This document shows, one piece after another, positions 9,990 to 24,130 of a stretch of DNA of 64,000 nucleotides. The first letter of the stretch is position 1. Every line of letters starts with the position of its first letter. The stretch lies in IMG/VR virus record IMGVR_UViG_3300030117_007612, positions 96,001 through 160,000 of that record. One strand, 5' to 3'. Origin of the DNA: a virus. Its lineage: Duplodnaviria; Caudoviricetes. Below the pieces are notes generated by a model. That model worked only from the letters and a program-made list of their open reading frames with translations. It was not told where the DNA came from and did not search any database. The position numbers and the translations under genes are program-made.

Positions 9990-10187
9990 ATGGCACAAAC
10001 AAAAGCATTTTTAGACACATGGTTGTCAAAGTTGACCTCTCGGAAACTTATGGTCTGGATAACAGCCACTGCCCTTACTTACGTGGGTCATGTGAGCAGC
10101 GAAGATTGGGTTATAATTTCTGCAATTTATATTGGCGGCCAAACAATAATCGATGGCATTGCTCGCCTCCGGGGTCATAATGATTAA
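9990..10187 (+). CDS. small two-TM membrane protein, holin-like
   Basis: SRKLMVWITATAL and WVIISAIYIGG hydrophobic segments; SD GGAGG favours ATG 9990. Confidence 0.45.
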   Translation: MAQTKAFLDTWLSKLTSRKLMVWITATALTYVGHVSSEDWVIISAIYIGGQTIIDGIARLRGHND

Positions 10188-10563: not shown

Positions 10564-10975
10564 ATTACTACTAATGTTGTCACTGGCGGCAAATGCAACC
10601 GAGCCCGCTAAGTTCACTATGTTAGAGTACAAACAGCCAGCACCCTTTGAGGGTGTTTTGTTTAATGAATTTGCAATATCAACAGTGCTATCTGATTATG
10701 AAATAGCCGCCTATTCATGCGATATAAGAACTGATTATGAATTAAAAAAGTTGCAAGAAAAATATAATTTTGAATTTGAAAATCTAAAAATAGAACACAA
10801 CTCGCTGATCAATGAGTACGATTTATTCATAATGCAGAAGGATAGAGAAATAAATTCTTTAACCACTGCTCTAAAAAAAACTTCGCCCCGCTACAAATGG
10901 CTGTGGTTTGCTGGTGGGATCCTCATTGGTGGTGCAAGTTCATATGGCGTATATAAATTGTACAATGAAAAATGA
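10553..10975 (+). CDS. secreted/membrane coiled-coil protein, spanin-partner-like
   Basis: Signal peptide MFLKLLLMLSLAANA, coiled coil, C-terminal TM WLWFAGGILIGG; overlaps previous gene. Confidence 0.35.
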   Translation: MFLKLLLMLSLAANATEPAKFTMLEYKQPAPFEGVLFNEFAISTVLSDYEIAAYSCDIRTDYELKKLQEKYNFEFENLKIEHNSLINEYDLFIMQKDREINSLTTALKKTSPRYKWLWFAGGILIGGASSYGVYKLYNEK

Positions 10976-11351
10976 AAAAGATCTAAATTACATCGCCGCC
11001 GTCGAAAAAGCAATTGCAAAGAAATATGGACAAGAGACGGTACAAAATCCGAAAGGAAATTGGGACGATGAAAAGGAAAAAGAGTACCTTCAACAGATCA
11101 AGGAATTTGCGCAAAAACAACGCAAAATCGAAGAAGGCTCAGAGAAGGTAGATGTTAATGGCATTTTGGTGTCAAAAAAACTACTTAATAAAGAACCCGC
11201 AGGTTCTTGTCCTGTTTGCGGAAAGTATCTTTCTATTGCAAAAGATGACATATGCATCGCAAAATTTAATTGCTGCTTTCAGTGTTACGTAAAATGGGTC
11301 GAGGATCGAGAGGAAAGATGGGCATCTGGATGGCGACCAAATGAAGATTGA
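10965..11351 (+). CDS. zinc-finger hypothetical protein
   Basis: CPVC...CIAKFNCCFQC; ATG 10965 preferred over the ORF-track start. Confidence 0.6.
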   Translation: MKNEKDLNYIAAVEKAIAKKYGQETVQNPKGNWDDEKEKEYLQQIKEFAQKQRKIEEGSEKVDVNGILVSKKLLNKEPAGSCPVCGKYLSIAKDDICIAKFNCCFQCYVKWVEDREERWASGWRPNED

Positions 11352-11649
11352 CGACATTAGAGATTTGATAAGACAAGAGCTTCTTAGTAGAACAAATCAT
11401 GACGTACGTGAAATTAAAAACGAAGTAAATGAGCCACAGCCACCCGACAATGAAGGTCGCATGGCGAAGTCGGAATTATATAAGCTTAAGAATTATGCAG
11501 AAAAGGTAAGCGACATGATAAGCGACACAGAACAACTAGAAGGGTGGGTCCAGTCAAAAATAACTAAGGCTGCTGACTACTTAAGCTCAGTTGCGCACTA
11601 TTTAGAGTATGAGAAATCAAGAGAGTTTTCTCAAGAAGGAGAAGAATAA
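11341..11649 (+). CDS. hypothetical protein, possible internal head protein
   Basis: N-term MKIDDIRDLIRQEL variant of the shared motif; QLEGWVQSKITKAADYL core. Confidence 0.55.
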   Translation: MKIDDIRDLIRQELLSRTNHDVREIKNEVNEPQPPDNEGRMAKSELYKLKNYAEKVSDMISDTEQLEGWVQSKITKAADYLSSVAHYLEYEKSREFSQEGEE

Positions 11650-12206
11650 TGGCTTCAGTGATGGACGTAATCAAAGGATTATCGCAAGCCGCAGCCAATG
11701 TTTACGACGGAGCATTGGATGAAAATGGTAATTATTTAGACGTTGGACTTAGAAGAGAGGAAGGCAACCCCCTAATTGATGAGAGAGTCATTGATGGTTT
11801 TAATGTGAAATTTCATGGCAATAGAATGATACTTTGTTATCATACCGCCGTCAAATTAAAAGAAATCCACAACGGCGGCTTTGAATCAGAAATAGAAAGT
11901 CAAATAAACCAAATCGCCAAATTTTTAAAAACTGAATATCGCAAAGTTACAGGCGACAATGTTTCGCTCACTGCGGAAGGTGAAGTTGACATTTTGGTGC
12001 AAAGCGCTGGCTATCATCGCTCTTGGATTCAGGCTTACATGACTTATAACATTGGCGGCATTGAAGAAGTTCAAACTGTTGGCCAAGCTAGTGAAGATTC
12101 TATGGAGGCTTCTTATCGAAAATTTCTCGATCAAGGAGGCTTTAAAGAGAAGGAAACAAAATCTCGCAAAGCCAATGTTAAAGCAAAGGATAATAAGGAT
12201 AAATAA
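11649..12206 (+). CDS. hypothetical phage protein
   Basis: 185-aa ORF, translationally coupled, normal codon usage. Confidence 0.65.
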   Translation: MASVMDVIKGLSQAAANVYDGALDENGNYLDVGLRREEGNPLIDERVIDGFNVKFHGNRMILCYHTAVKLKEIHNGGFESEIESQINQIAKFLKTEYRKVTGDNVSLTAEGEVDILVQSAGYHRSWIQAYMTYNIGGIEEVQTVGQASEDSMEASYRKFLDQGGFKEKETKSRKANVKAKDNKDK

Positions 12207-12209
12207 ATT

Positions 12210-12659
12210 ATGAAACTTACAAAAGAAATACTTAGAGAGATCATTAAGGAAGAAATAGAGAATGCCCGCGATGTGTCAGAGGGCCCTATTGGCTCCGTTG
12301 CCCCTATGTCCACTACAGGCCAACGACGCCCACGTGGCACTGCTCCAAGTCGACCAGTAGAGGAGCCGGATGCTGCAGTGGGTGGGGAAACGACCATGGA
12401 AATTGGAGCTGTCGAAAACATTAAATCGAGACTGGATCAATATATCGCCCAGCCCGGAAACCAAATGAAAGGAAGATTCAACGGTTTGCTCAATTTTCTT
12501 GATGCATATTTGGCCTCTCAAGGTTTGGGCGTTAAAGGCGATTATAGAAAAGAGCGCGGTACCGATACACAACGTAGAACTAAATCAAGACAGGTTGTGC
12601 AAAGAGGCAAAGGCTCTGCTGCTGGCATTGGATTAAAAGAAGGAGAATCCGAAGAATGA
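12210..12659 (+). CDS. MKITxxxLRxIIxEE-family protein
   Basis: Begins MKLTKEILREIIKEEI; contains VSEG and LKEG. Confidence 0.65.
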   Translation: MKLTKEILREIIKEEIENARDVSEGPIGSVAPMSTTGQRRPRGTAPSRPVEEPDAAVGGETTMEIGAVENIKSRLDQYIAQPGNQMKGRFNGLLNFLDAYLASQGLGVKGDYRKERGTDTQRRTKSRQVVQRGKGSAAGIGLKEGESEE

Positions 12660-12754
12660 AAAACGTACTACACAGATTAGCAAACTTATTTAATAGCGAA
12701 CACTGCTGCTGCTGCTGCGGCTGCTGTAGTTGCGCCGGAGCATGTTGCAAATGA
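12656..12754 (+). CDS. 32-aa cysteine-rich peptide (not in ORF track)
   Basis: MKNVLHRLANLFNSEHCCCCCGCCSCAGACCK*; ATGA overlap with both neighbours. Confidence 0.65.
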   Translation: MKNVLHRLANLFNSEHCCCCCGCCSCAGACCK

Positions 12755-12981
12755 AAATCACAAAAGAACAATTGCGTAAGATTATTATGGAGGAGATATC
12801 CTCTGAAGGTGTTGTTGACATGGGCGGCGAGCCAGTTGTCACTGGCCCAGAAGGTGATGCATCCGGAGAGGCCCAAGCCGGCGCTCGCCTTAAAGATGTT
12901 ATTTTATATCTCGAAGGTAATGAAAGAGACGACTTGGCCGAACCACTTCGCAAGATTCAAGAAATGCTAGAGATGCTATAA
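12751..12981 (+). CDS. MKITxxxLRxIIxEE-family protein
   Basis: Begins MKITKEQLRKIIMEEISSEG at ATG 12751. Confidence 0.65.
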   Translation: MKITKEQLRKIIMEEISSEGVVDMGGEPVVTGPEGDASGEAQAGARLKDVILYLEGNERDDLAEPLRKIQEMLEML

Positions 12982-13009
12982 TTATCGGCAGCAGGATAGG
13001 AGACTCACA

Positions 13010-13438
13010 ATGAAGATTACTGAATCGGAAATCATAAAATATATTAAAGAAGAGATGGAGTCTGATTCGGCTTTAGCTGATGCAATTGTAAAACTGTCCA
13101 ATAAGATAGACAACCTAGACGTGAGCATTGACTATCTGGCATCGGCTCTTACTGGCGAAGATGTTTTAGATATTGGCCTCGCGCAAAAAGCTTTTGGCAG
13201 ATTCAGAGCCGCCCCAACTGTAAGTGTTGGCCGTTCTGACATGTCAGAGGGCCTCGTTACAGAAGATGTCTACGACGAGGCGAAGCAAATTGCTAAAGAT
13301 CCCAAACAGATAGATCATCTCTTCCAGCTTCTACAGGCCGTCGTTAGCGTAGCTGCTGATATGAATATGATGGGTATGCGGCTAATGAAATTAGGAGATC
13401 TTCACAAACATGCGACAGAAAAATTCAAAAACAATTAG
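13010..13438 (+). CDS. MKITxxxLRxIIxEE-family protein
   Basis: Begins MKITESEIIKYIKEEM; SD AGGAG upstream. Confidence 0.65.
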   Translation: MKITESEIIKYIKEEMESDSALADAIVKLSNKIDNLDVSIDYLASALTGEDVLDIGLAQKAFGRFRAAPTVSVGRSDMSEGLVTEDVYDEAKQIAKDPKQIDHLFQLLQAVVSVAADMNMMGMRLMKLGDLHKHATEKFKNN

Positions 13439-13685
13439 TAAGTTACAACTTAGGCAGATTGTCAAAGAAGAACTTAGGGCCGTTTTGAACGAAGGGCATT
13501 ATCATGACATGGGCGGCGAAGACGAAATGTACGATGCTTTGGATCCACATGGCATTGCAAAGATGTCAGATGCACAATTAGTAGATGCTGCCTACCGTGA
13601 TGGAATTGAAGAAATTCTAGTTTTAGACAACGAAGGCGATCTTGTAAATCGTGAAGAAGTCATAATGGCACTGAAAAATGTATGA
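13410..13685 (+). CDS. MKITxxxLRxIIxEE-family protein
   Basis: KTISKLQLRQIVKEELRAVLNEG near the N-terminus; start uncertain. Confidence 0.55.
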   Translation: MRQKNSKTISKLQLRQIVKEELRAVLNEGHYHDMGGEDEMYDALDPHGIAKMSDAQLVDAAYRDGIEEILVLDNEGDLVNREEVIMALKNV

Positions 13686-15265
13686 GCTTTCAATTAACCA
13701 AAAAAGATATGATGAAAGAGATCCTAAAGTGCGGCAAGGATCCGACATACTTTCTTAATACATATGCAAGAATTTCACACCCCCTGCACGGCACTATACC
13801 TTTCAGAACATACGATTTTCAACAAGAATTACTAGACGATTTTAATGATTATCGTTTTAATGTGATATTAAAAGCCCGCCAGTTAGGTATTTCGACCATA
13901 ACTGCGGGCTATGTTGTTTGGCTGATGTTGTTTCATCGCGATAAAAACGTTTTGGTTATGGCAACCAAGTTTGGTACCGCCGCAAACCTCGTTAAAAAAG
14001 TCAAAAGCATAATGAAAAACCTGCCTGACTTTATAAAAATTGCAGAAATTTCTGTTGACAACCGTACATCATTCGAATTATCAAATGGATCTTTTATTAA
14101 AGCTTCCTCAACTTCTGGTGATGCTGGTCGTTCTGAATCACTCTCCCTGCTTGTGCTTGATGAGGCTGCTCACATTGAGGGACTAGAAGAGTTGTGGACC
14201 GGTCTATATCCCACGCTGTCAACGGGTGGTAGGTGTATTGCACTATCAACCCCAAATGGTGTTGGAAATTGGTTTCACAAAACATACATGGAAGCTGACT
14301 CTGGGGCAAACAATTTTCACCCCACGAACTTACCATGGGATGTGCATCCAGATCGCGATCAGCAATGGTTTGAAAAAGAGACAGCAAATATGTCTAGACG
14401 ACAAATTGCTCAAGAGCTAGAGTGTAATTTTAATACTTCTGGCGAAACTGTAATTGATCCGGAAGATTTGGAAAAGCTAGCAAAAAACGTGAGAGAGCCA
14501 AAATACAAAACAGCATTTGATAGAAATTTTTGGATTTGGGAAGAGCACGATCCATCGTGCAATTATCTCATGGTTGCTGATGTTGCAAGAGGCGATGGGA
14601 CCGACTATTCTGTATTTCACATTATCAAGCTTGAAACTTTAGAGATCATAGGGGAATACCAAGGGAAACCCACACCAGACTTATTTGGCAATATGATTAA
14701 TCAAATAGGTAGAGAGTTTGGAGATTGTTTGGTTGTTGTTGAAAACAACAGTATCGGATACGCTGTATTGGAAAAATTGGTTGAGTTTGGATATCCGAAT
14801 GTTTACTATTCAGTTAAGTCAACACATGAATATATCGATCAATATCAAGCCGAAAGCCAAACAAATGCGGTGATGGGCTTTTCAACTACTTCAAAGACGC
14901 GTCCTTTAATAGTTGCCAAACTTGAAGAATTCATAAGAAATGAACTAATTACTGTGAATTCTGGTCGTTTAATAAACGAAATGAGGACTTTTATTTGGCA
15001 GTACGGAAAACCACAGGCCATGAGAGGGTACAACGATGACTTGGTTATGTCGTTGGCAATTGCATGTTGGATTAGGGACACCGCACTCCAAGTTAACCAA
15101 AGAAGCATGGATTATCAAAGGGCTTTTTTAAGCTCTATAGTCTACACAAAAACGAGTTTTGATACTACAATTAAGGGAATGGACAAAAACAAAAGCACAA
15201 AAATGACCGATAGAATAGCTGAACAAAAAGAAAGCTATGATCATTTAATGTGGCTAATAAAGTGA
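13682..15265 (+). CDS. terL: terminase large subunit (T4 gp17-like)
   Basis: ILKARQLGIS (Walker A region), LVLDEAAHI (Walker B), LSTPNG coupling motif, nuclease DVARGDGTDYS and NDDLVMSLAI. Confidence 0.95.
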   Translation: MSFQLTKKDMMKEILKCGKDPTYFLNTYARISHPLHGTIPFRTYDFQQELLDDFNDYRFNVILKARQLGISTITAGYVVWLMLFHRDKNVLVMATKFGTAANLVKKVKSIMKNLPDFIKIAEISVDNRTSFELSNGSFIKASSTSGDAGRSESLSLLVLDEAAHIEGLEELWTGLYPTLSTGGRCIALSTPNGVGNWFHKTYMEADSGANNFHPTNLPWDVHPDRDQQWFEKETANMSRRQIAQELECNFNTSGETVIDPEDLEKLAKNVREPKYKTAFDRNFWIWEEHDPSCNYLMVADVARGDGTDYSVFHIIKLETLEIIGEYQGKPTPDLFGNMINQIGREFGDCLVVVENNSIGYAVLEKLVEFGYPNVYYSVKSTHEYIDQYQAESQTNAVMGFSTTSKTRPLIVAKLEEFIRNELITVNSGRLINEMRTFIWQYGKPQAMRGYNDDLVMSLAIACWIRDTALQVNQRSMDYQRAFLSSIVYTKTSFDTTIKGMDKNKSTKMTDRIAEQKESYDHLMWLIK

Positions 15266-15274
15266 GTTTAAAAT

Positions 15275-17236
15275 ATGGCAATTAATCCTAAAAATCCAAG
15301 AAATCCGCAATCTCAATTATTCAAGAGTTTGACAAGATTGTTTTCCGGACCAATCATTAACTATCGTAGTCAGACCGGTCGAAAGATCAGAAGACAACAC
15401 TTGGATAAATATTCGTCAAGGTTCCGTTCAGCCAGTGGGCAACAGTTTAAACGGAGTACCTACAATCCACTAGACGTCGTTGCTGTTAATGCAATTGCAA
15501 ATCAAAGAAGAAGCGAAAGATATATTGACTTCGATCAAATGGAATACATGCCAGAGATTGCCTCGTCCTTAGACATATACGCAGATGAGATGACAACACA
15601 TTCAAGTCTCCAGCCAATGTTAAAAATACACTGCACCAACGAAGAAATCAAAGCAGTGCTTGATGTTCTGTATCACAACATAATGAACATTAATTACAAT
15701 TTATTTGGATGGTGCCGAACGATGTCTAAATACGGCGACTTCTTTTTGTATTTAGATATCGACGAAAAATATGGAGTTAAGTCAACCATAGCCCTGCCCT
15801 CTCAGGAGGTCGAAAGGCTTGAGGGATTAGACGCAACAAACCCAAATTATATTCAATATCAGTGGAATAATGCCGGAATGACGTTTGAGAATTGGCAGAT
15901 ATCTCACTTTAGAATCTTAGGAAACGATAAGTATGCGCCATACGGTACATCAATTTTAGAGCCGGCCCGAAGGATTTGGCGCCAACTTACTTTAATGGAA
16001 GACGCAATGATGGCATATCGTGTCATTCGCTCACCAGAGAGAAGGGTCTTCAAGATCGATGTTGGTTCAATTCCACCACAAGATGTCGAACAGTATATGC
16101 AAAAAATTGTAACACAGATGAAGCGCCACCAAGTTGTTGATCCTGACACCGGGCGCGTTGACCTTAGATATAATCCATTAAGTATTGAGGAGGATTACTT
16201 TATTCCTGTTCGTGCAAATTCCTCATCTGATATAACAACGCTCCCGGGCGGCTCGAACGCAACAGAGATTGACGATATTAAATATTTAAGAGATAAGCTG
16301 TTTTCTGCATTAAAGGTGCCACAATCTTATTTGTCACGCGGCGAAGGCGCCGATGAAGACAAAACGACATTAGCACAAAAAGATATCAGATTCGCAAGAA
16401 CCATTCAAAGATTACAGCGCGTTGTAGTATCTGAGTTAGAAAAGATTGGAATCATTCACTTATACACATTAGGTTTTAGAGGAGACGATCTTCTCAGTTT
16501 CAAGTTGGCATTAAACAATCCATCAAAAATCGCAGAACTGCAGGAACTTGAACACTGGAGATCTAAATTTGATACGGCCGCTGCAGCAAATGAGGGTTAT
16601 TTTTCGAGACGATGGGTTGCTGAAAAACTATTCAATATGTCCGAAGAAGAATTCCTTCGCAATCAAAGAGAGTTGTTTTATGATCGCAAGCAGGATTCTG
16701 CGTTGCAAGCGATTGCCGAAGCAGGCGCCCTCGGCGCCGAAGGCGGCGGATTGGGTGGCGATTTGGGTGGTGACCTAGGAGGCCTCGAAGCCGCCGAGGG
16801 ACCCGAAGCAGATCTAGAAACCGCACCGCCCCCCGCCGATGAGGTACCCCCGGGTGACGAATCAATGCTTCTCACTTCCCCAGAGGGCCCACCCCCGGGC
16901 CATAGAGATTCGCCTACAATTTATAAATCACCAGACGGCCATGGCACCAGCAAATATCATAGAGTAAAAGTCGACCAACGTCGTCTTGGGGCTTTAAGAA
17001 GAAACATGGCTAGGGCTGCCTCTCCGGAGGTAAATACCTATAGAAAGAACAATCTAGGCGCGCCAGAATTAAGAACCCATGCTCGCGGAAGTATTTACGA
17101 GCAACAAGGCCCTATTTATAATGACAATGAAAATCGTCTGTTCGAAATCAATCACGAAGTTAGGGGCTTAATTAAGTCGCTTGAAGAAAAAGAAAACATA
17201 GTGGAGTTAAAAAAGGATGAAACCAAAGCACAATAA
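15275..17236 (+). CDS. portal protein (T4 gp20-like)
   Basis: KYGDFF, YGTSILEPAR, LMEDAMMAYR..R.PERRVFKIDVG, EEDYFIPVR, LPGG, DDIKYLRDKLFSALKVP. Confidence 0.95.
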   Translation: MAINPKNPRNPQSQLFKSLTRLFSGPIINYRSQTGRKIRRQHLDKYSSRFRSASGQQFKRSTYNPLDVVAVNAIANQRRSERYIDFDQMEYMPEIASSLDIYADEMTTHSSLQPMLKIHCTNEEIKAVLDVLYHNIMNINYNLFGWCRTMSKYGDFFLYLDIDEKYGVKSTIALPSQEVERLEGLDATNPNYIQYQWNNAGMTFENWQISHFRILGNDKYAPYGTSILEPARRIWRQLTLMEDAMMAYRVIRSPERRVFKIDVGSIPPQDVEQYMQKIVTQMKRHQVVDPDTGRVDLRYNPLSIEEDYFIPVRANSSSDITTLPGGSNATEIDDIKYLRDKLFSALKVPQSYLSRGEGADEDKTTLAQKDIRFARTIQRLQRVVVSELEKIGIIHLYTLGFRGDDLLSFKLALNNPSKIAELQELEHWRSKFDTAAAANEGYFSRRWVAEKLFNMSEEEFLRNQRELFYDRKQDSALQAIAEAGALGAEGGGLGGDLGGDLGGLEAAEGPEADLETAPPPADEVPPGDESMLLTSPEGPPPGHRDSPTIYKSPDGHGTSKYHRVKVDQRRLGALRRNMARAASPEVNTYRKNNLGAPELRTHARGSIYEQQGPIYNDNENRLFEINHEVRGLIKSLEEKENIVELKKDETKAQ

Positions 17237-18038
17237 AAAAAGAAATACTGCTTTTATATACGAATCTTTAATTAAAGAAATTACTAAAAGTATTATTGAA
17301 AAAAATGATAAAAAGAAAATCAAAACACTGAAGATAGTGAAGAAATATTTTTCAACTGGGTGTATTTTGAGAGAGGAGCTGGAACTTTACAAGAGTCTTT
17401 ATGAAAACTGTGCTTTGGAGAAAGACGAATGCGAAAAAGTTCTCAAAGAAGCTAAACTGCAACATAGATTCCTAAACCCACAGGTAGTGTTTAAGCAGCA
17501 GACAAAACTAATCAACGAGATTAACAAAGAATTAAGCTCGGATGTTTATAACAATTTTATTCCAAACTACAAAACCTTGGCATCCATATCTCAGATATTT
17601 AGTGGAAAACTAAACCCCAAGTCATCGATATTGTTGGAAAAAGAAATAGTTCAATATATGTGTGATACTTCCACTATTGATGAAAAAAATCTCAAACCAA
17701 TTGACAACCTTGTATTAAAGTCGTTTATTGGCAAATTCAATGAAAAGTATTCAAATGATTTATTAAGCGAGCAAAAATTGCTTTTAAGTCATTATATATC
17801 TTCTTTCTCGGATAACGGTGTTCAATTAAAAATGTTTTTGAATGAGGAATTGAGCAGATTAAAAACTGAATTAAAGAAATCACTATCTTTGGATGAGATT
17901 TCAAGCGATTCCATAATGTGTGAAAAAATAAACACCCTAATGGAAAAACTCAATTCTTATTCTAAAGTTGCAATAGATGAGAAAATGCTACGACAGATTT
18001 TAAAAACCCAAAATTTAGTTAAGGGAATTTATGAATAA
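17217..18038 (+). CDS. hypothetical protein in head module
   Basis: 273-aa helical ORF overlapping the portal end (KHNKKRNTAFIYE). Confidence 0.6.
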   Translation: MKPKHNKKRNTAFIYESLIKEITKSIIEKNDKKKIKTLKIVKKYFSTGCILREELELYKSLYENCALEKDECEKVLKEAKLQHRFLNPQVVFKQQTKLINEINKELSSDVYNNFIPNYKTLASISQIFSGKLNPKSSILLEKEIVQYMCDTSTIDEKNLKPIDNLVLKSFIGKFNEKYSNDLLSEQKLLLSHYISSFSDNGVQLKMFLNEELSRLKTELKKSLSLDEISSDSIMCEKINTLMEKLNSYSKVAIDEKMLRQILKTQNLVKGIYE

Positions 18039-18586
18039 TGTCTGTTAGCGTATCCATTGGAAAAGAACTTAATAAGCCAAAACAAAATCTCATAAGGCTT
18101 GAATTAAATATTCGTAAAGCCCTCAATGGCGATCTTATGATTTTCGATCATGGTGATATTGATATTGTTTTAAGTCCTGATGGCAATAAAATTGTAACGT
18201 TCGCGAAGGAGAACATGTCCGATACGGTATACGGCGCCCAAAATAGATTGTTTACTTTCCTTAGAAAAAAAGGAGTGATTGTTCCTGAGTCAGTTCAAGC
18301 AGGCAATGTGTATGGCTCAATGGAAGCAGTCATATTAGAATCAGTTGATGAAAACTTAAGCTCATCAAAGATTGCATTGTTAAATATTTCAAAATTTATT
18401 GATGATGAGCGGCCTTACTTTGAATTCGTCGATAGTATTGTTGATGAGTTTGAAGATGACATGACGGATCCGGAAAATATCGATAGCACTGATTTGGGAG
18501 ATGTTGAGCACTCTGTTGAAAAGGGCTCTATTAGGAAGGGATATGTGAGAGATCCATATTCTTTAAGTTATTTATACACAATTTAA
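18038..18586 (+). CDS. hypothetical protein in head module
   Basis: 182-aa ORF coupled to the previous gene. Confidence 0.6.
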   Translation: MSVSVSIGKELNKPKQNLIRLELNIRKALNGDLMIFDHGDIDIVLSPDGNKIVTFAKENMSDTVYGAQNRLFTFLRKKGVIVPESVQAGNVYGSMEAVILESVDENLSSSKIALLNISKFIDDERPYFEFVDSIVDEFEDDMTDPENIDSTDLGDVEHSVEKGSIRKGYVRDPYSLSYLYTI

Positions 18587-18594
18587 ACTATTTA
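18587..18594 (+). promoter_or_regulatory. putative late promoter ACTATTTA
   Basis: ACTANTTA motif upstream of 18623. Confidence 0.55.
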
Positions 18595-18622
18595 TAAGAG
18601 AAAGGTTTTAGGAGATTAAAAA

Positions 18623-19024
18623 ATGCCAGCAAATTCATGGAGATATCCACCCGGCTTAAACAACGTTGGATCATACCAAGTATCGGGTATGCCATATATC
18701 ACAGGCTCGGCTTCATTGACTTCGGGTAGTGAACACAAGATATCGTTCCCGAAAGTAACACGTGCTGTGACGGTGATGAACCACTCAAGTAACACTCTAA
18801 GGTTTTCGTTTGCCCCTACGGGGTCTAACGGAGATAGGGTTCAAACAGGGTTTCATTATATTGAACTAGATAGTGATGAAGATTCATTTAAATTGAATGT
18901 TAAATGTAAGGAGATTTATGTATCTTCTACAGCGGGCACAGTTGAGTATCGTGTTATTGCGGAATTGACCAATATTGATACCAATTCCATGGGTCCAATA
19001 TCCGGCTCTGGACTCACTGATTAA
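18623..19024 (+). CDS. putative small virion protein
   Basis: Beta-rich ORF with TGS/SGS motifs, SD AGGAG, late promoter upstream. Confidence 0.5.
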   Translation: MPANSWRYPPGLNNVGSYQVSGMPYITGSASLTSGSEHKISFPKVTRAVTVMNHSSNTLRFSFAPTGSNGDRVQTGFHYIELDSDEDSFKLNVKCKEIYVSSTAGTVEYRVIAELTNIDTNSMGPISGSGLTD

Positions 19025-19038
19025 GAAGGGCAATAACA

Positions 19039-20976
19039 ATGGGGTTCAAACCGGGAAAGGGCGAAATTGCTGAAACTTTTAAAATCAGCGATGGAAGCAT
19101 AAAAGTAAAAGAGCAAGCAAATGCTGAAGCAGATGAAGCTGCTTACGGACAACTTTGGGTTAAATCAAATACTCCGTGCGATTTGTTTTTCACTGACGAC
19201 AGTGGCCAAGATATTCGATTAACTAACGACGGTGCTTTAGCTAGCTCTGGTGGCACGCTATCTGGCCTAGGCAGTACTGACAATGCCGTGCTGCGTGCAA
19301 ATGGCACCGGTGGCGAAACAGCCCAAGGGTCTGCAGCAACGATTACCGATGCCGGCGTTGTGTCTGGCAGCTCATATACGGGCTTTGCAACCCGCACAGA
19401 AAAAGTTGAGGTTACATCAGTCTCTGCATCCAGTGCTCAAGCAGCAACACTTTCTGGATCAGCAGCAACACTTGATAATTTAACCCTTGGAAACACCGCT
19501 GTTACATCAGATGCCGGCGAATTAAACCTACTTGACGGCAGCAGTGCCGGCTCGATTGCAAACAGTAAAGCTGTTGTTTATAGCTCAGTTGGAATTGTAA
19601 CAGGAAGCTCTCACAAAGCTTTCTCTGCAATTGCTACAGAAGGGGAATTTGCAACATCAGTTTCCTCCTCTCTGCATTTAGGCTCTATGATTTCCGCAAG
19701 CTTAACTGTTAGCGGCGGCCAACATCAAGGGTTTAGAGGTGACTTCGCGTTACTGTCTGGGTCTTCTGTCACAGTCGATAACGTCACGATTAAGAACACC
19801 GGCAGAGTAACCGGCAGCTTTATTGATTATAATTACGCTTTCGAACCCGACGCAGTAATCACTGCGCTTGAAATTGACGTTGACAAGGTAACCGCCACTA
19901 CGTCAAGTAATTTAATAACAGGGATTAAGGTTGATCTCGACAACACAACGGCCACTAACGGTACGAACACGATGATTGGCGGAAGCTTTACTCCAACATT
20001 AACGCACGCAGCGGATGCCGGAATATCGATTGTAAAAGGTGTTGAGATTGTGGCAACTGCCGGCGGCAATGGCCAAGGCACAGCCAGAGGCATCGAGATT
20101 AAATCTTCTGGTGGAGACTATAATCAAGGAATTTATATGAACGTTGCTAACGGTGGCGTAGACCTGAAGTGTGTAAGCTCTGCGGACGCTGGTGACTTCT
20201 TTACAATCTCTTGCGGTACCAATGGTGAAACAACACTTAAAACTAATGACGACGATGATGGAAATGCCAATTTTATTTGTGAAGCCGATGGCAATTTTAA
20301 AATTGACGCTAAAAATATCATTAAACTTGATTCTGAAATTGGCGACATACACTTTTTAGATAATGGCACTACTATGCTCGCCATTGATCTTGACAGCACC
20401 TCTGGATCAATCGGCGCCGACTTAATTTTCAAAGTCGAAGATGATGCCAAGAACTTAGTATTCCAGCAGAACAATGGTTCTGAGGTCGCAAGAATTCAAC
20501 ACACTGGTTCACTGGGATCAAACTGGAGAAGTGTAGAGCCGGGCCTCAACCACAAAAGGCAGGTGTTGGAAGTTTTGGCCGACGGCGCATCAGTAACGGC
20601 CACTCTCGCAGCATCGAATAGCGGGTGCATTGTGCTAGCAATACCCGTTAATGATGATATTGTAATTGTTTTACCCGCGGGTACCCCGGGCCTGTTCTAT
20701 GATATTTGGCTGGGTGAAGACGTTCCAAGTGGCAAAACTGTTAAAATTCGAACAAACGGAACAGACAACAATGATAGCATATATGGCTACTTTACTGTGC
20801 CCGCCGGCGGCAGTGGTGACGAAGTGACTTTTGACTTTACTGGCGACGTCTTAACCCTACAGGCAAACACAGCCAAGGGTGCGTGGGTTAAAGTAACCAA
20901 CGTTGTCGGCGGATCAAATGAAATTTGGCATGCTGAAGTCATCTCACAAACTGTTGCTCTGGTTGACAACTCATAG
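19039..20976 (+). CDS. fibre/decoration-like virion protein (mosaic)
   Basis: Gly/Ser/Thr-rich; shares modules with 24414..26699 and 26699..31054. Confidence 0.55.
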   Translation: MGFKPGKGEIAETFKISDGSIKVKEQANAEADEAAYGQLWVKSNTPCDLFFTDDSGQDIRLTNDGALASSGGTLSGLGSTDNAVLRANGTGGETAQGSAATITDAGVVSGSSYTGFATRTEKVEVTSVSASSAQAATLSGSAATLDNLTLGNTAVTSDAGELNLLDGSSAGSIANSKAVVYSSVGIVTGSSHKAFSAIATEGEFATSVSSSLHLGSMISASLTVSGGQHQGFRGDFALLSGSSVTVDNVTIKNTGRVTGSFIDYNYAFEPDAVITALEIDVDKVTATTSSNLITGIKVDLDNTTATNGTNTMIGGSFTPTLTHAADAGISIVKGVEIVATAGGNGQGTARGIEIKSSGGDYNQGIYMNVANGGVDLKCVSSADAGDFFTISCGTNGETTLKTNDDDDGNANFICEADGNFKIDAKNIIKLDSEIGDIHFLDNGTTMLAIDLDSTSGSIGADLIFKVEDDAKNLVFQQNNGSEVARIQHTGSLGSNWRSVEPGLNHKRQVLEVLADGASVTATLAASNSGCIVLAIPVNDDIVIVLPAGTPGLFYDIWLGEDVPSGKTVKIRTNGTDNNDSIYGYFTVPAGGSGDEVTFDFTGDVLTLQANTAKGAWVKVTNVVGGSNEIWHAEVISQTVALVDNS

Positions 20977-20992
20977 AGGATATAAGTAGGCG

Positions 20993-21217
20993 ATGCCATA
21001 CACATCATCAGGCAAGTGCGTTTATAAAAAAAACAAAGATGGCTCTCGTGGTAAAAAAGTGGGATGTACAAAGGGTCCCGTAAAGCAGTACCTTAAGGCT
21101 TTGTATGCTAATACCGATGAGGGCTTGGATAAAACTGTAACAGAAGAAACAATGAGACTAATTATTAGAGAAGAATTACAAGAATATCTAAAGGAGATTA
21201 CAAATGACAATGGATGA
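20993..21217 (+). CDS. small basic protein with internal IIxEE motif
   Basis: MPY..GKCVYKK...GC...YLKALYAN then TVTEETMRLIIREEL. Confidence 0.6.
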   Translation: MPYTSSGKCVYKKNKDGSRGKKVGCTKGPVKQYLKALYANTDEGLDKTVTEETMRLIIREELQEYLKEITNDNG

Positions 21218-22253
21218 TTTTGATTTTATAGATCACTATGGCGAAGCCGAAGAGGTAGCCAACGAAGATCAGCTACCAGATAACGAAGTTGGCTCATCGC
21301 TAAACTGTGCTATTATTGGCGTTGGTGGAGGGGGCGGCAAAATGGCAAAAGCCTTTTTAGATATCGGCTACAATAAAACATTGTTGATTAATACTACTCC
21401 AAAAGATATCCCAAGCGACGTCGATGAATCACATGTAGTGCTGATTCCGGATGCTGATGGGATCGGAAAAGATGTCAGCTTGGGTAAATCCGTACTTGAC
21501 GCCAATAGCGCCGTTGTTGAAGATGCCTTGCGGACAAAACTTGGCAAGGTTGATTGGCTTATCGTATTATCAGGCGGTGGCGGAGGTACTGGTAGTGCCA
21601 CTGCTTCATTGCATTCTGTTTTCGAAAGATACTTAAAATCTGTTCAGGCCGATGGTGACATACTTTATGTCGCATCGTGGCCAACAGCACAAGAGTGCTT
21701 GAATCCCACAATTAGCAAAAATGCACTGTCACTTATTAATGACGTATCAAAGCACTCGCACATTGTGATCGACAATGAAAGGCAGGTTAAGTTACTCAGA
21801 GGCAAGGTTGGCATGCTTGGAATGTTTCCGTTTGCCAATACGGCGTTTGCCAAGCTTTTAACGCAGGTGCTCAGATTGTCTGCAGAACAGTCACCAATCC
21901 AGTCTTTTGATTCAAAAGATCTTGCTAGGTGCTTAAGCACAGATGGTAGAATGTTTATTGGGTCTACGATGATTGCTGACCCGGCCAGTCCCAACCTTGG
22001 ATCGATGATTTTACAAAATTGCCTGAAGCGCTCTCCCTGCCCGCAGCCCTCTGGGCGCCCAAAAACAGGCACACTACTATTGGTGGTGAGCCCTGAGATG
22101 GCGTCTGATCCAGAGATCAGCAAGCACCTAGATAATGCAATTTCGTACGTCGGAGGAAGAACAGAGACACTTTTTTCCGGAGTCTATGTTAAAGAGAACG
22201 TACCGGGCTTGGTTGCTATCTTGTGCATGAATGGTTTACCCAAAGGAAATTAG
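21204..22253 (+). CDS. FtsZ/tubulin-family GTPase
   Basis: IIGVGGGGG (T1 loop), SGGGGGTGS (tubulin signature variant), IDNE, FDSKDL (T7-like xDxxD). Confidence 0.88.
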   Translation: MTMDDFDFIDHYGEAEEVANEDQLPDNEVGSSLNCAIIGVGGGGGKMAKAFLDIGYNKTLLINTTPKDIPSDVDESHVVLIPDADGIGKDVSLGKSVLDANSAVVEDALRTKLGKVDWLIVLSGGGGGTGSATASLHSVFERYLKSVQADGDILYVASWPTAQECLNPTISKNALSLINDVSKHSHIVIDNERQVKLLRGKVGMLGMFPFANTAFAKLLTQVLRLSAEQSPIQSFDSKDLARCLSTDGRMFIGSTMIADPASPNLGSMILQNCLKRSPCPQPSGRPKTGTLLLVVSPEMASDPEISKHLDNAISYVGGRTETLFSGVYVKENVPGLVAILCMNGLPKGN

Positions 22254-22267
22254 CGGGAGATGTTAAA

Positions 22268-22735
22268 ATGAAAATAAGCAGACACCGCCTCATGCAGATT
22301 ATTCAAGAAGAGTATGATATAATGTTGCGTTCTGAAAAAAAAGAACGACTTGACGAAAGTGTTGTTTTAGAAGCTTCCATGTCTCAAAGCGAGGTGGCTC
22401 TCGCTTCAATTGAATCGGCGATTAACGGCACCTTGCACAATTTGTTAAAAGACTTTGTAGCTGAAACGGAAATTAAAAGCATTGTCGATAGTGCAGCTGA
22501 CGCCGTTGCAGGCAGGATTGGCATTGAGCTAGAAAGCATATATAATGAAAAGCAGGCACCTCTTGAGGAGGTGGTGATGACTCAAGAGCCAATGGATATT
22601 CTAGAAGAATTAAGAAGCTTGACAAATAAGTTATCATCGATATCCGGCAACGCACAGCCGTTTGAAAATATAGCATCGGATATGATAATACAGATTAATG
22701 ATTTAGAGGAAATTTTAACAACGGAGAAGGAATGA
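22268..22735 (+). CDS. MKITxxxLRxIIxEE-family protein
   Basis: Begins MKISRHRLMQIIQEEY at ATG 22268; LDES, VLEA sites. Confidence 0.6.
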   Translation: MKISRHRLMQIIQEEYDIMLRSEKKERLDESVVLEASMSQSEVALASIESAINGTLHNLLKDFVAETEIKSIVDSAADAVAGRIGIELESIYNEKQAPLEEVVMTQEPMDILEELRSLTNKLSSISGNAQPFENIASDMIIQINDLEEILTTEKE

Positions 22736-23067
22736 TAGAGTTGCTTAATTTATTGTGGTTTGTACTGGCGGCGTATGGTTTAACTCAAATTCTTATTTAC
22801 GGAACAATTTTCAACAAGATAAGGCCGACTAAACAGTGGCTTAATGGATTTGGAGAATTATTCCACTGCCCCATGTGTATGGGTTTTTGGGTTGGCGTAT
22901 TTTTATGCGGCGTTAGTACGTATACGCAACTATTTACGTTTGAGACATCTTTAATAAATTATTTTATTTTAGGTTGTGTTAGTTCAGGTACATCATATAT
23001 CCTGAACGTTTTATTTTGCGATAACGGAATACAAATAGGAGTTAGAAATGGGAAAGACATGGACTAG
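22732..23067 (+). CDS. DUF1360-like membrane protein
   Basis: Three hydrophobic segments and CPMCMGFWVG motif. Confidence 0.55.
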   Translation: MIELLNLLWFVLAAYGLTQILIYGTIFNKIRPTKQWLNGFGELFHCPMCMGFWVGVFLCGVSTYTQLFTFETSLINYFILGCVSSGTSYILNVLFCDNGIQIGVRNGKDMD

Positions 23068-23113
23068 TAAATGGATGTTGCAGCCAGTTCGCCATTGCTG
23101 CAAGGGGAGTTAG
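23048..23113 (+). CDS. 21-aa peptide (not in ORF track)
   Basis: MGKTWTSKWMLQPVRHCCKGS*; fills the gap and stops 2 nt before the protease ATG. Confidence 0.4.
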   Translation: MGKTWTSKWMLQPVRHCCKGS

Positions 23114-23115
23114 CT

Positions 23116-23721
23116 ATGGGTAAGGTACTTTTACGAGAATTTTATGAATTATGTGAAGGGGGCGTCTGTCAGGATCTTTTAACCGAGGAAGAGAAGAGGT
23201 TTGTGGCCGGCGGCGGTATGATTTTGTCTGGAATTATGCAAAAATCAGACACTGTTAATGGAAATGGAAGAATTTATCCACACAAAGTTCTTGTTCGTGA
23301 GGTTGAAAACTACTCTAAGCTTGTAAAAGAGCGACGAGCGCTCGGAGAATTAGACCACCCAGACGACTCAGTGATCAATCTTAAGAATGCATCACACCTT
23401 TGCACCAGCATATGGTGGGAGGGGCAAGATGTCATGGGCAAGGTTAGAATTTTGGACACACCATCTGGAAAAGTACTGCAAGAGCTTGTAAAATCAGGTG
23501 TTAGCCTCGGAATTTCTTCAAGAGGAATGGGTTCTGTTAAAGAAAGCCAAAATGGCACAATTGTTGAAGATGATTTTCAGTTAATTTGTTTTGATTTTGT
23601 ATCAGAACCCTCAACACCCGGCGCCTACATGATGAAAGAGTCTAAAAGCTTAAAAGAATCAAACATCTTCACAAAAGCAGATAAAATCAACAGATTAATC
23701 AACGAGGCTCTAGATGAATAA
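23116..23721 (+). CDS. prohead core protease (T4 gp21-like)
   Basis: NGNGRIYP, GELDHP (His), GISSRGMGS (Ser), DFVSEPST. Confidence 0.93.
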   Translation: MGKVLLREFYELCEGGVCQDLLTEEEKRFVAGGGMILSGIMQKSDTVNGNGRIYPHKVLVREVENYSKLVKERRALGELDHPDDSVINLKNASHLCTSIWWEGQDVMGKVRILDTPSGKVLQELVKSGVSLGISSRGMGSVKESQNGTIVEDDFQLICFDFVSEPSTPGAYMMKESKSLKESNIFTKADKINRLINEALDE

Positions 23722-24130
23722 GGCAGATTTAAAGAAGCTTATAAAACCACTAGTGAAAGAGTGCGTACAAGAAACCCTTCTAGAAGAAGGGTTGCTTTCT
23801 GGAATTGTAAGTGAGGTGGTAAAAGGAGTTTCCTCGGCACCACCAATCGTCGAGAAGGCAAAAACAGCAAAAACAGCACCGAAACAAGAACTTGATTACA
23901 AAAGAATAGCAGAGACCAAAAAGAAGATAAATCAACACCAAAAAAGACTATTAGACGCCATCGGCTCAGACGCCTACAATGGCGTTGATTTATTTGAGGG
24001 TACAAAACCGATTTCTGATAGCGGTGCCCCCAAGCCGGGCTCAACTGATTTGGGAGAACATGACGATCCGGGTGTTCCTTTCGCCGGACCATTGGCTGAA
24101 GCTTCCAAAATGTGGGGTAAATTAGTTTAA
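23714..24130 (+). CDS. hypothetical protein with related N-terminal helix
   Basis: MNKADLKKLIKPLVKECVQETLLEEG. Confidence 0.6.
   Translation: MNKADLKKLIKPLVKECVQETLLEEGLLSGIVSEVVKGVSSAPPIVEKAKTAKTAPKQELDYKRIAETKKKINQHQKRLLDAIGSDAYNGVDLFEGTKPISDSGAPKPGSTDLGEHDDPGVPFAGPLAEASKMWGKLV

What the first reader, a model, noticed from the sequence alone, without database searches (positions are those of the whole stretch)
11341..24130. Family of unrelated small head-module proteins sharing an MK(I/L)TxxxLRxII(K/R)EE tag followed by LxE protease-type sites
Seen: the motif opens or recurs in otherwise dissimilar ORFs: 12210 MKLTKEILREIIKEEI, 12751 MKITKEQLRKIIMEEI, 13010 MKITESEIIKYIKEEM, 13410 KTISKLQLRQIVKEEL, 22268 MKISRHRLMQIIQEEY and 20993 (internal) TEETMRLIIREEL, with looser copies at 11341 and 23714. 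Most are followed by (L/V/M)-x-E-(G/S/A) sites (VSEG, LNEG, MSEG, LDES), which also occur in the MCP N-terminus (LTEG), the scaffold and the protease. Known: T4 gp21 cleaves after Glu in L/I-x-E and T4 internal proteins carry a short capsid-targeting sequence. Inference: this is a modular capsid-targeting/core-binding leader that loads diverse cargo into the prohead, is clipped by the protease, and lets the cargo be ejected into the host. That would be a general-purpose phage protein-packaging tag.
Basis: partly seen in the sequence, partly recalled or inferred. Interest (0 to 1): 0.8.

Follow-up and report, generated by a model that had tools for sequence, protein, structure and literature searches.

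The report
Shared head-loading tag on phage proteins
An uncultured marine relative of phage T4 starts many unrelated small proteins with the same 16-residue peptide, which ends in the cut site of its head-maturation protease; it most likely loads those proteins into the phage head as T4's capsid-targeting sequence does, but no experiment has tested this.

Summary
The window is part of a complete 203-kb IMG/VR virus genome with a T4-type head module: an S77 gp21-like protease, a Gp23-family capsid protein and a T4-like portal.

- **Copies in this genome:** the tag MK(I/L)(T/S)K.QLKQIIKEE(L/I) occurs five times at 26-35 bits (window 12210, 12751, 13010, 13428, 22268). About 0.01 copies are expected by chance. 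The looser copies at 11341, 21140 and 23714 score at noise level.
- **Copies in relatives:** in 1.8 Mb of relatives the core motif occurs 136 times, always on the coding strand. In 116 cases it lies exactly 7 residues after a Met. It heads 189 ORFs that fall into 91 unrelated cargo clusters with no meaningful Pfam match.
- **Level of selection:** synonymous codons vary, so selection is on the peptide.
- **Cut-site pattern:** I12-x-E14 is nearly invariant, and a further (L/I)-x-E follows within 25 residues twice as often as chance predicts. The capsid protein carries LLRE where T4 gp23 is cut.
- **Location:** 88% of neighbouring genes in a tag-only sample map to the neck/terminase/portal/protease block.
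- **Host genomes:** the strict consensus form of the tag is absent from 596 Gb of prokaryote genomes.

Best reading (about 0.55): a lineage-specific counterpart of the T4 capsid-targeting sequence. Packaging, cleavage and ejection are untested.

First readers of this scan noted the same tag in two related genomes, and analogous tags in other phages.

The parts
12210..12659 (+). Tagged ORF (149 aa). Tag MKLTKEILREIIKEEI at 12210-12257, then VSEG at residues 22-25.
   Evidence: 29.4 bits. Three homologues in relatives, all tagged.
12751..12981 (+). Tagged ORF (76 aa, pI 4.4). Tag MKITKEQLRKIIMEEI at 12751-12798.
   Evidence: 35.1 bits, the best copy.
13010..13438 (+). Tagged ORF (142 aa). Tag MKITESEIIKYIKEEM at 13010-13057. 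Member of the one large conserved tagged family (LDVSIDYL domain).
   Evidence: 27.4 bits. The AF2 model is all-helical with pLDDT 53 and puts residues 5-18 in a helix.
13410..13685 (+). Tagged ORF (91 aa). Tag KTISKLQLRQIVKEEL at 13428-13475, preceded by 6 extra residues and followed directly by LNEG. Its stop overlaps the terminase start.
   Evidence: 26.1 bits. Relatives carry the same GHYHDMGGEDE body after a canonical Met-start tag, or as the C-terminal half of two-tag fusion proteins.
22268..22735 (+). Tagged ORF (155 aa, pI 4.4). Tag MKISRHRLMQIIQEEY at 22268-22315; LDES at residues 37-40.
   Evidence: 31.5 bits.
20993..21217 (+). Small basic protein (74 aa, GKCVYKK..GC family) with a tag-like C-terminal helix, TEETMRLIIREEL, at 21140-21178.
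   Evidence: A core-regex hit but only 6.4 bits with the N-terminal HMM. Relatives have the same body untagged (56-59 aa), or with an N-terminal tag. Other proteins in relatives end in a similar C-terminal helix.
11341..11649 (+). ORF (102 aa) with a degenerate tag, MKIDDIRDLIRQELL.
   Evidence: Not detected by the HMM. Its C-terminal domain recurs in relatives behind canonical or near-canonical tags.
23714..24130 (+). Conserved 138-aa protein directly after the protease; a candidate prohead-core protein. Its N-terminus MNKADLKKLIKPLVKEC is only tag-like. It has conserved LLEEG and DLFEG sites.
   Evidence: 76 homologues, none with the true tag. Alignment A4. hhalign against the tag gives probability 41% over 10 columns.
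23071..23721 (+). Prohead core serine protease (T4 gp21 type), the presumed processing enzyme.
   Evidence: Pfam Peptidase_S77 5.7e-33; phrog_207 head maturation protease 5.2e-57.
31162..32250 (+). Acidic coiled-coil protein directly upstream of the capsid gene; a candidate gp22-like scaffold and the presumed docking partner. It has invariant SLSEA, IVEA and V.EA sites.
   Evidence: Position and alignment A3. No family match, so identity as a scaffold is inferred.
32276..34033 (+). Major capsid protein (Gp23 family). LLRE (residues 56-59, nt 32441-32452) aligns with the T4 gp23 maturation site FLTE|A.
   Evidence: Pfam Gp23 1.3e-73; N-terminal alignment with T4 gp23 and relatives.
11649..12206 (+). 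Conserved untagged 185-aa gene inside the tag island. Its fold weakly resembles tail-terminator/neck proteins. It anchors the variable slot upstream of the terminase.
   Evidence: 86 homologues. AF2 pLDDT 73. Best Foldseek hits are phage terminator/neck proteins, but only at E 1e-3 to 3e-2 and TM about 0.3.
13682..15265 (+). Large terminase; the downstream anchor of the main tag island.

Best explanation
The 16-residue peptide is a lineage-specific counterpart of the phage T4 capsid-targeting sequence.

Proposed mechanism:
1. The tag forms an amphipathic N-terminal helix that docks the nascent protein onto the prohead scaffolding core while the head is built.
2. The T4-type (S77) prohead protease cuts it off at the built-in I12-K13-E14 site, at a second (L/I)-x-E a few residues further on, or at both.
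3. The freed cargo stays inside the head with the DNA.

Shown here:
- The tag is conserved, N-terminal and modular.
- It is selected as a peptide, not as DNA.
- It is confined to viruses.
- It is concentrated in the head/neck gene block.
- It ends in the protease-type motif.

Inferred: docking to the core, cleavage and residence in the virion.

More weakly inferred: the cargo is ejected into the host and acts there. The fast turnover of small acidic proteins suggests host-interaction or anti-defence roles.
For: (1) T4-type head machinery is present: Peptidase_S77 protease, Gp23-family capsid protein and T4-like portal.

(2) The tag is far beyond chance and strictly positioned.
- 5 copies against about 0.01 expected.
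- 136 of 136 hits in 1.79 Mb of relatives are on the coding strand, and 116 lie exactly 7 residues after Met.
- Information content collapses after residue 16.

(3) The cargo is unrelated and swappable.
- 91 clusters from 189 ORFs, with no meaningful Pfam or PHROG family.
- The same body occurs untagged, N-tagged or C-tagged (GKCVYKK family).
- The same cargo occurs behind two different leaders.

(4) Selection is on the peptide. There are 184 distinct 48-nt versions with free synonymous codon use. Identity is 0.75 at codon positions 1+2 and 0.52 at position 3.

(5) The protease logic fits.
- T4 gp21 cuts after L/I-x-E, and the T4 CTS MKTYQEFIAE ends in I-A-E (PMC9026906).
- Here I12 is 91% and E14 is 97% conserved, and I12-x-E14 is present in 167 of 185 tagged proteins.
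- A second [LI]-x-E follows in 122 of 185, against 56 +/- 6 expected.
- The capsid protein has LLRE, and relatives LISE/IVSE/LLKE, in the column of the T4 gp23 maturation site.
- The candidate scaffold and the post-protease protein carry invariant [LIV]-x-E-[AG] sites.
- An independent leader family in the same genome, MKLLFENWRKF[LI]xE, also loses conservation right after [LIV]12-x-E14.

(6) Location. In loci found by the tag pattern alone, 271 of 309 identifiable neighbours map to window 7002-24130, the block from neck to terminase, portal and protease.

(7) Hypervariable islands, as with T-even ip loci. The slot upstream of the terminase varies from 0.5 to 3.1 kb and holds 0-5 extra ORFs. 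Each complete genome has 5-8 tags.

(8) Virus-only. The strict consensus form of the tag gives at least 120 IMG/VR stretches and none in 596 Gb of prokaryote genomes.

(9) A divergent tag of the same format, followed by a conserved VLxE(G/D), clusters around the protease and capsid genes of the 484-kb phage LR756508.
Against: - There is no proteomic, structural or genetic evidence of packaging or cleavage. No cultured phage carries the canonical tag.
- The cargo is mostly acidic (median pI 4.96) and depleted in aromatic residues and Cys. T4 internal proteins are basic. The cargo could be core filler rather than injected effectors.
- A minority of tagged genes lie outside the head block. In relative G002 they lie beside DNA polymerase III alpha and dUTPase, and in G004 they lie in a block of small ORFs.
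- The residue after the presumed cut is Glu, whereas the conserved sites in the scaffold and core proteins have Ala or Gly there.
- A tag-like helix also occurs at C-termini. That fits a docking helix but not a strictly N-terminal propeptide.
- The (L/I)-x-E enrichment may partly reflect helix periodicity.
- A consensus sigma-70 promoter at 6780-6808 lies upstream on the same strand with no strong terminator between, so late-only expression is not shown.
Confidence: 0.55

Rival explanations
1. The tag is a docking or oligomerisation helix that brings diverse small proteins to a common partner that is not the prohead. The partner could be a host protein, or a phage assembly other than the head. 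The tag is not cleaved, and the I-x-E is simply part of an amphipathic Glu-rich helix.
For: - The tag is predicted helical.
- Tag-like helices also sit at C-termini.
- The cargo is acidic.
- Some tagged genes lie beside replication genes.
- Early transcription from the sigma-70 promoter at 6780 is possible.
Against: - 88% of neighbours in a tag-only sample are neck, terminase, portal or protease genes.
- Tagged genes overlap the terminase start.
- Two independent leader families both end conservation at [LIV]12-x-E14. A pure docking helix does not predict that.
- The tag was seen only in genomes with an S77 protease.
Confidence: 0.2
2. The tagged ORFs are fast-diverging accessory scaffold or core proteins. 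They enter the prohead through the tag but are degraded and expelled, like T4 gp22, gp67 and gp68. They are not cargo delivered to the host.
For: - The cargo composition is acidic, helical and low in complexity, like scaffold proteins.
- One tagged family (13010) is broadly conserved.
- The conserved post-protease protein has a tag-like N-terminus.
Against: - There are 91 unrelated clusters, and gain and loss occur even between near-identical genomes. That is hard to reconcile with a structural role.
- Scaffold components are normally conserved, as the candidate scaffold and the 138-aa protein are here.
Confidence: 0.12
3. The tag is a recognition leader for a modifying enzyme (RiPP-like, for example radical-SAM/SPASM), as an earlier follow-up in this scan proposed for a shared leader in phage RB43.
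For: - One conserved leader on many unrelated bodies is also the RiPP pattern.
- A 32-aa Cys-rich ORF lies among the tagged genes (12656-12754).
- The genome has one radical-SAM gene.
Against: - The only radical-SAM gene is about 57 kb from the tag island, at genome 51283 against 107-110 kb.
- It never appears among the 309 neighbours of tags.
- Cargo runs to 400 aa.
- The constant neighbours are structural or unknown small genes, not enzymes.
Confidence: 0.04
4. The conservation is at DNA or RNA level: a recombination cassette, a translation-initiation enhancer or a regulatory RNA at gene starts.
For: The first codons are A-rich. The genes sit in recombination-prone variable islands.
Against: - Synonymous codons vary freely at every position (Ile ATC/ATT/ATA, Leu CTT/TTA/CTC, Ser in six codons).
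- Third positions are much less conserved than first and second positions.
- Conservation extends 16 codons in frame.
Confidence: 0.03
5. The tag is an address for a tubulin-based structure, because a tubulin/FtsZ homologue sits among the tagged genes.
For: The tubulin gene 21204-22253 is flanked by tagged ORFs. In four relatives it lies inside the tag island.
Against: Relative G002 (5 tags) and LR756508 (14 tag matches) have no Tubulin-family match.
Confidence: 0.03

Closest known systems
[quoted passage not shown]
   Same: - A short N-terminal peptide shared by otherwise unrelated, fast-evolving small proteins.
- It starts with MK and ends in I-x-E.
- The phage has a T4-type core, an S77 protease and a Gp23 capsid protein.
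- The genes sit in hypervariable islands.
(PMC3012670, PMC9026906)
   Different: - No sequence homology: the tag HMM finds nothing in T4.
- It is 16 residues long rather than 10, and much more widely reused (91 cargo clusters here, 838 database proteins).
- The cargo is mostly acidic rather than basic.
- C-terminal copies and two-tag fusion proteins exist.
- At least two further leader families coexist in the lineage.
- The function is untested.
N-terminal propeptides of head and ejection proteins in phiKZ-like giant phages (phiKZ, 201phi2-1, SPN3US), cut by a gp21-like protease
   Same: Many internal head proteins are trimmed after Glu by a T4-like prohead protease and are then ejected into the host (PMC10052503, PMC7411985, by their abstracts; site motifs from my own knowledge).
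   Different: Those propeptides share no common consensus leader and are usually longer. Here a single conserved 16-mer is reused.
Encapsulin cargo-loading peptides
   Same: A short terminal peptide is sufficient to direct diverse cargo into an HK97-fold shell (established knowledge).
   Different: They bind the shell protein itself, are usually C-terminal and are not cleaved. There is no scaffold core, no protease and no sequence likeness.
Shared-leader systems for one modifying enzyme (RiPP-like; the scan's RB43 radical-SAM case, e1-127136)
   Same: One conserved leader heads many unrelated bodies.
   Different: No enzyme is linked to the tag here. The cargo is protein-sized.

Membership tests
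T4-type capsid-targeting sequence / internal-protein system | The phage builds its head on a T4-type core with an S77 (gp21) protease and a Gp23 capsid protein. | tested here: met
   Peptidase_S77 5.7e-33 and phrog_207 5e-57. Gp23 1.3e-73 and T4-like portal phrog_213.
T4-type capsid-targeting sequence / internal-protein system | A short conserved N-terminal peptide on otherwise unrelated proteins. | tested here: met
   116 of 136 motif hits are at a fixed distance from Met. 91 cargo clusters. Conservation collapses after residue 16.
T4-type capsid-targeting sequence / internal-protein system | The peptide ends in the protease motif (L/I)-x-E. | tested here: met
   I12-x-E14 in 167 of 185. The homologous capsid-protein maturation column reads LLRE. 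This is sequence evidence only.
T4-type capsid-targeting sequence / internal-protein system | Sequence similarity to the T4 CTS MKTYQEFIAE. | tested here: not met
   The tag HMM has no match at E<=1 in T4. The only shared features are the MK start and the I-x-E end.
T4-type capsid-targeting sequence / internal-protein system | The peptide is sufficient for incorporation into the prohead, is removed by the protease, and the mature protein is found in virions. | not testable with these tools
   No cultured host or virion data. No cultured phage carries the canonical tag.
T4-type capsid-targeting sequence / internal-protein system | The cargo is small, basic and DNA-associated. | tested here: not met
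   Median cargo pI 4.96; 52% below pI 5 and 15% above pI 9.
T4-type capsid-targeting sequence / internal-protein system | The genes lie in hyperplastic loci that differ between close relatives. | tested here: met
   The slot upstream of the terminase is 513-3090 bp with 0-5 extra ORFs among relatives sharing about 74% TerL identity. An indel separates the window from L001, whose TerL is 100% identical.
RiPP-like leader recognised by a linked modifying enzyme | A modifying enzyme gene is consistently encoded near the leader-bearing genes. | tested here: not met
   The single radical-SAM gene is about 57 kb away. No enzyme appears among recurrent neighbours.
Sec/Tat signal peptide | A hydrophobic core of about 10 or more residues after a basic n-region. 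| tested here: not met
   The consensus MKITKSQLKQIIKEEL alternates charged and hydrophobic residues and has no hydrophobic stretch.
Encapsulin cargo-loading peptide | A terminal peptide that binds the shell protein, with cargo genes beside an encapsulin shell gene and no protease. | tested here: not met
   The context is a tailed-phage head module with scaffold and protease. Binding to the shell was not tested.

The most novel reading that the evidence does not exclude
Abundant uncultured marine T4-like phages, and at least one 484-kb huge phage, use a small set of interchangeable leaders, each ending in the prohead-protease site near residue 14:
- MKITKSQLKQIIKEE
- M.RKNKK.IDPRYF..E...
- MKLLFENWRKFLxE

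These leaders would load a large, rapidly turning-over arsenal into the capsid for co-injection with the DNA. The arsenal would comprise over 90 families of small acidic proteins, plus enzyme-like cargo such as a J-domain protein. If so, the injected proteome of uncultured phages could be read directly from sequence.
Probability: 0.3. Interest if true: 0.8.

Novelty: new variant of a known kind. Interest (0 to 1): 0.58.

Why it matters
- **Generality of T4's trick:** if the tag is a capsid address, T4's way of smuggling proteins into the host with the DNA is a general, evolvable system in abundant ocean phages, with far more cargo diversity than in T4.
- **A sequence-only marker:** the tag would pick out candidate injected proteins in metagenomes, likely including anti-defence or host-takeover factors. 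All of them are currently 'hypothetical' with no Pfam family.
- **Dissecting targeting:** there is a second and a third leader family, and the same cargo occurs behind different leaders. This offers a natural experiment for separating targeting from cleavage determinants.
- **Practical use:** a defined 16-residue tag could be used to load foreign proteins into related capsids.

Tried and rejected
- **Complex prediction.** I folded the first 40 residues of the 12751 protein against the candidate scaffold (A3) plus the 138-aa post-protease protein (A4). The result was no verdict (score 0.00, partner pLDDT under 50). It is not evidence either way.
- **AF2 of the 13010 family.** pLDDT 53, all-helical, too poor for a fold search.
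- **tblastn against 50,697 phage records.** A 25-aa consensus tag, the 13010 protein and the 11649 protein all gave no match, so no cultured carrier with proteomics was found.
- **megablast of the whole stretch against phages.** No match.
- **Pfam and PHROGs on the window's tagged proteins and on 91 cargo representatives.** Nothing meaningful.
- **Cluster look-up of ten NCBI-sourced tagged proteins.** No names.
- **Full-text searches for the tag strings and the second leader's strings.** No paper.
- **Small-terminase idea for the 11649 gene.** Dropped, because its model weakly resembles tail-terminator/neck proteins instead.
- **Late-promoter check.** A box ACTATTTAY precedes several structural genes but not the tagged genes individually, so expression timing stays open.
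- **Radical-SAM linkage and tubulin linkage.** Both rejected.
- **DNA-level conservation.** Rejected.

Full report
**What the window is.** The window is bases 96,001-160,000 of a complete 203,368-bp IMG/VR virus record. All large ORFs lie on the + strand.
- The stretch holds a T4-type head module:
  - large terminase, 13682-15265
  - T4-like portal, 15275-17236 (phrog_213)
  - Peptidase_S77 prohead protease, 23071-23721
  - an acidic coiled-coil protein, 31162-32250, directly upstream of the capsid gene
  - a Gp23-family major capsid protein, 32276-34033
- The nearest cultured relatives are distant: Microcystis phage Mel-JY01, Rhodothermus phage RM378 and Flavobacterium phage immuto, with capsid-protein identity of 35-45%.
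- Hundreds of marine IMG/VR contigs encode terminases and proteases that are 70-85% identical.

**Is the motif there, and is it more than chance?** All quoted peptides are at the stated coordinates.
- A core regex hits five times in the six-frame translation of the whole genome, all on the + strand and all inside the finding. About 0.01 hits are expected.
- An HMM of the first 22 residues (A1) scores five copies at 26-35 bits: 12751, 22268, 12210, 13010 and 13434. The next best score in the genome is 7.7 bits.
- The C-terminal helix of the 20993 ORF (6.4 bits) and the N-terminus of 23714 (5.4 bits) are at noise level. 11341 is not detected at all.
- 11341 is still probably a decayed tag, because its C-terminal domain recurs in relatives behind canonical tags.
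- 23714 is a different thing. It is a 138-aa protein conserved in all 76 relatives examined, and its residues 2-11 only loosely resemble tag positions 4-13.

- In 156 related loci (1.79 Mb) the core motif occurs 136 times, always on the coding strand. In 116 cases it lies exactly seven residues after a Met.
- The consensus is MKITKSQLKQIIKEE(L/I). Information content is 2-4.3 bits per position through residue 16 and under 1 bit afterwards.
- 189 tagged ORFs of 50-403 residues fall into 91 clusters when residues 21 onward are compared. None has a meaningful Pfam or PHROG match.
- A search of 5.8 billion proteins restricted to residues 1-40 returned 838 tag-bearing proteins. The 120 listed are marine-metagenomic, carry no informative name and have no Pfam domain.
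- The strict back-translated consensus is found in at least 120 IMG/VR stretches and in none of 596 Gb of bacterial and archaeal genomes.
- No paper in the library contains the tag string.

**Modularity.**
- The small basic GKCVYKK..GC protein (20993 family) exists in three forms: untagged, with an N-terminal tag followed by LAEG, and with a C-terminal tag-like helix, as in the window.
- The GHYHDMGGEDE body of 13410 also forms the C-terminal half of longer proteins that carry one tag at the N-terminus and another internally.
- One cargo occurs behind the MK tag in one phage and behind a different leader in another.
- The tag is therefore a transferable module, not the residue of one paralogous family.

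**Peptide or DNA?** There are 184 distinct 48-nt versions. Synonymous codons vary at every position, and third positions are far less conserved than first and second positions (0.52 against 0.75). Selection is on the peptide.

**Where the tagged genes lie.**
- Five complete relatives carry 5-8 tags each, mostly within 1-12 kb upstream of the terminase.
- To avoid the bias of loci fetched through head genes, I used the 78 loci found by the tag pattern alone. Of 309 neighbours with a homologue in this genome, 271 (88%) map to window 7002-24130, 13 map just upstream of it, and 22 map elsewhere.
- The slot between a conserved 134-aa gene and the terminase varies from 513 to 3090 bp and holds 0-5 extra ORFs.
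- Even L001, whose terminase is 100% identical to the window's, has one extra ORF there.
- There are exceptions. In G002 four tagged genes follow DNA polymerase III alpha and precede dUTPase, and in G004 three lie in a block of small ORFs.
- T4's own ip genes also lie outside its head cluster (my knowledge), so these exceptions weaken the location argument but do not refute it.

**The protease link.** T4 gp21 cuts after L/I-x-E, and the T4 CTS is a 10-19-residue N-terminal propeptide whose residues 8 and 10 govern processing (PMC9026906). T4 encodes MKTYQEFIAE twice.
- In this tag, I12 (91%) and E14 (97%) are among the most conserved positions, and I12-x-E14 occurs in 167 of 185 proteins.
- A further [LI]-x-E starts at residues 16-40 in 122 of 185 proteins. 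Shuffles give 56 +/- 6, and the next window has 36 of 183. The peak is at residues 19-22.
- Aligning capsid-protein N-termini with T4 gp23 puts the window's LLRE|V in the column of T4's FLTE|A. Relatives read LLRE|A/N, Mel-JY01 LISE|A, immuto IVSE|A and LR756508 LLKE|A. That T4 is cut there (Glu65/Ala66) is from my own knowledge.
- The candidate scaffold and the 138-aa protein carry invariant SLSEA, IVEA, LLEEG and DLFEG sites.
- The 484-kb phage LR756508 has 14 matches to a divergent tag of the same format, M(K/R)L(T/S)E..L(R/K)KI(V/I)KEE(I). Of the eleven whose sequence I read, most are followed by VLxE(G/D). The matches cluster around its protease and capsid genes.
- The HMM finds nothing in RM378, S-SSM4, HTVC008M, P-SSM2, T4, LR756511 or a Variovorax phage. 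It gives one chance-level partial match in Mel-JY01 (E 0.007; C-terminal and covering only the first 10 model positions). The tag is therefore lineage-specific.

**Further leader families.** These are outside the finding as written, but they bear on it.
- Relatives carry a second leader, M(A).RKN(K/T)(K/R).(I/F)DPRYF(M/L).E..., in 58 distinct copies. It often ends in IIKEE.
- This genome carries five copies of a third leader, MKLLFENWRKF(L/I)xE, at genome 14.0-18.8 kb, and relatives carry dozens more. Its conservation ends at [LIV]12 (83%)-x-E14 (78%). One copy heads a J-domain protein.
- Two unrelated leaders that both stop being conserved at hydrophobic-x-Glu at residues 12-14 are what a shared processing step predicts. 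A plain docking helix does not predict this.

**Rivals.**
- *DNA-level element:* rejected.
- *Tubulin-linked address:* two tag-bearing genomes lack a tubulin match.
- *A non-capsid docking helix* and *scaffold-like filler rather than injected cargo* both remain open.
  - The cargo is acidic (median pI 4.96), rich in Ala, Glu, Gln and Pro, and poor in aromatic residues and Cys. This differs from T4's basic internal proteins.
  - The very fast turnover argues for host interaction rather than a structural role.

**What is known and what is new.** The principle is established for T-even phages: a conserved CTS on diverse internal proteins in polymorphic loci (PMC3012670, PMC9026906). This tag has no sequence similarity to the T4 CTS. 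It is longer, is reused on far more cargo, coexists with other leaders, and belongs to an uncultured marine lineage. I found no published description. I file it as a new variant of a known kind.
- Within this scan, first readers noted the same tag in two related genomes (e1-5378444, e1-5389577).
- Follow-up agents reported analogous tags of other sequence in other phages (for example e1-3862018, e1-5376900).

**Verdict.** My confidence that this is a CTS-like, protease-trimmed prohead address is about 0.55, and that the cargo is ejected and acts in the host about 0.3. Interest is 0.58.

Noticed in passing
L001:~9007; L060:2113; many other loci (not in the window): Relatives carry a second N-terminal leader family, M(A).RKN(K/T)(K/R).(I/F)DPRYF(M/L).E..., in 58 distinct copies. 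It often ends in IIKEE, and it heads the same cargo that elsewhere carries the MK tag. L001, whose terminase is 100% identical to the window's, has one such extra ORF in the terminase-upstream tag island; the window lacks it.
   Followed up: partly
Own genome G000:14000-18792 (outside the window; locus L305:1001-6479): Five genes begin with a third leader, MKLLFENWRKF(L/I)xE. Conservation ends at [LIV]12-x-E14. One is a DnaJ (J-domain) protein, and by eye another has a HAD-like DxDxT motif. A NUDIX gene follows. 78 distinct copies were seen in all fetched DNA.
   Followed up: partly
window 18587, 24372, 31119 (exact); 1229, 38063, 41230, 44293 (one mismatch): The box ACTATTTA(T/C) lies 30-70 nt upstream of several structural genes (18623, 24414, 31162, both sheath genes). 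It is a candidate late promoter. There are 34 matches against 21 +/- 5 expected at one mismatch or fewer.
   Followed up: partly
window 6780-6808: A perfect sigma-70 consensus, TTGACA-17-TATAAT, lies upstream of the 1049-aa SbcC-like gene, and an 11/12 match lies at 5284-5312. No strong terminator separates them from the tag island on the same strand.
   Followed up: no
window 11649-12206: A conserved 185-aa gene inside the tag island. Its AF2 model (pLDDT 73) has phage tail-terminator/neck proteins as best Foldseek hits, but weakly (E 1e-3 to 3e-2, TM about 0.3). In the simplest relatives it is the only gene between the conserved 134-aa gene and the terminase.
   Followed up: partly
window 21204-22253; G001:112097, G003:181522, G004:94749, G005:193652: The tubulin/FtsZ homologue changes place between relatives. 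In four of them it lies upstream of the terminase among tagged genes, and here it lies between portal and protease. No match was found in G002.
   Followed up: partly
window 12656-12754: A 32-codon ORF, MKNVLHRLANLFNSEHCCCCCGCCSCAGACCK, is wedged between two tagged genes with overlapping start and stop codons. Other first readers also flagged it. I did not check whether it is conserved.
   Followed up: no
window 20993-21217 and relatives: A family of 56-59-aa basic proteins, MPY.R.GKCVYKK..DGS.GKKKGC, possibly DNA-binding. In this phage it has gained a C-terminal tag-like helix, and in one relative an N-terminal tag.
   Followed up: partly
L156:4972, L023:6284, L084:208, L067:32: Some proteins carry two tags, either N-terminal plus C-terminal or N-terminal plus internal. 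They look like fusions of adjacent tagged genes, that is, possible polyproteins.
   Followed up: partly
window 24131-24361: A ribosomal protein bS21 gene (Pfam 1.6e-12) lies between the post-protease gene and two very large fibre-like genes inside the head module.
   Followed up: no
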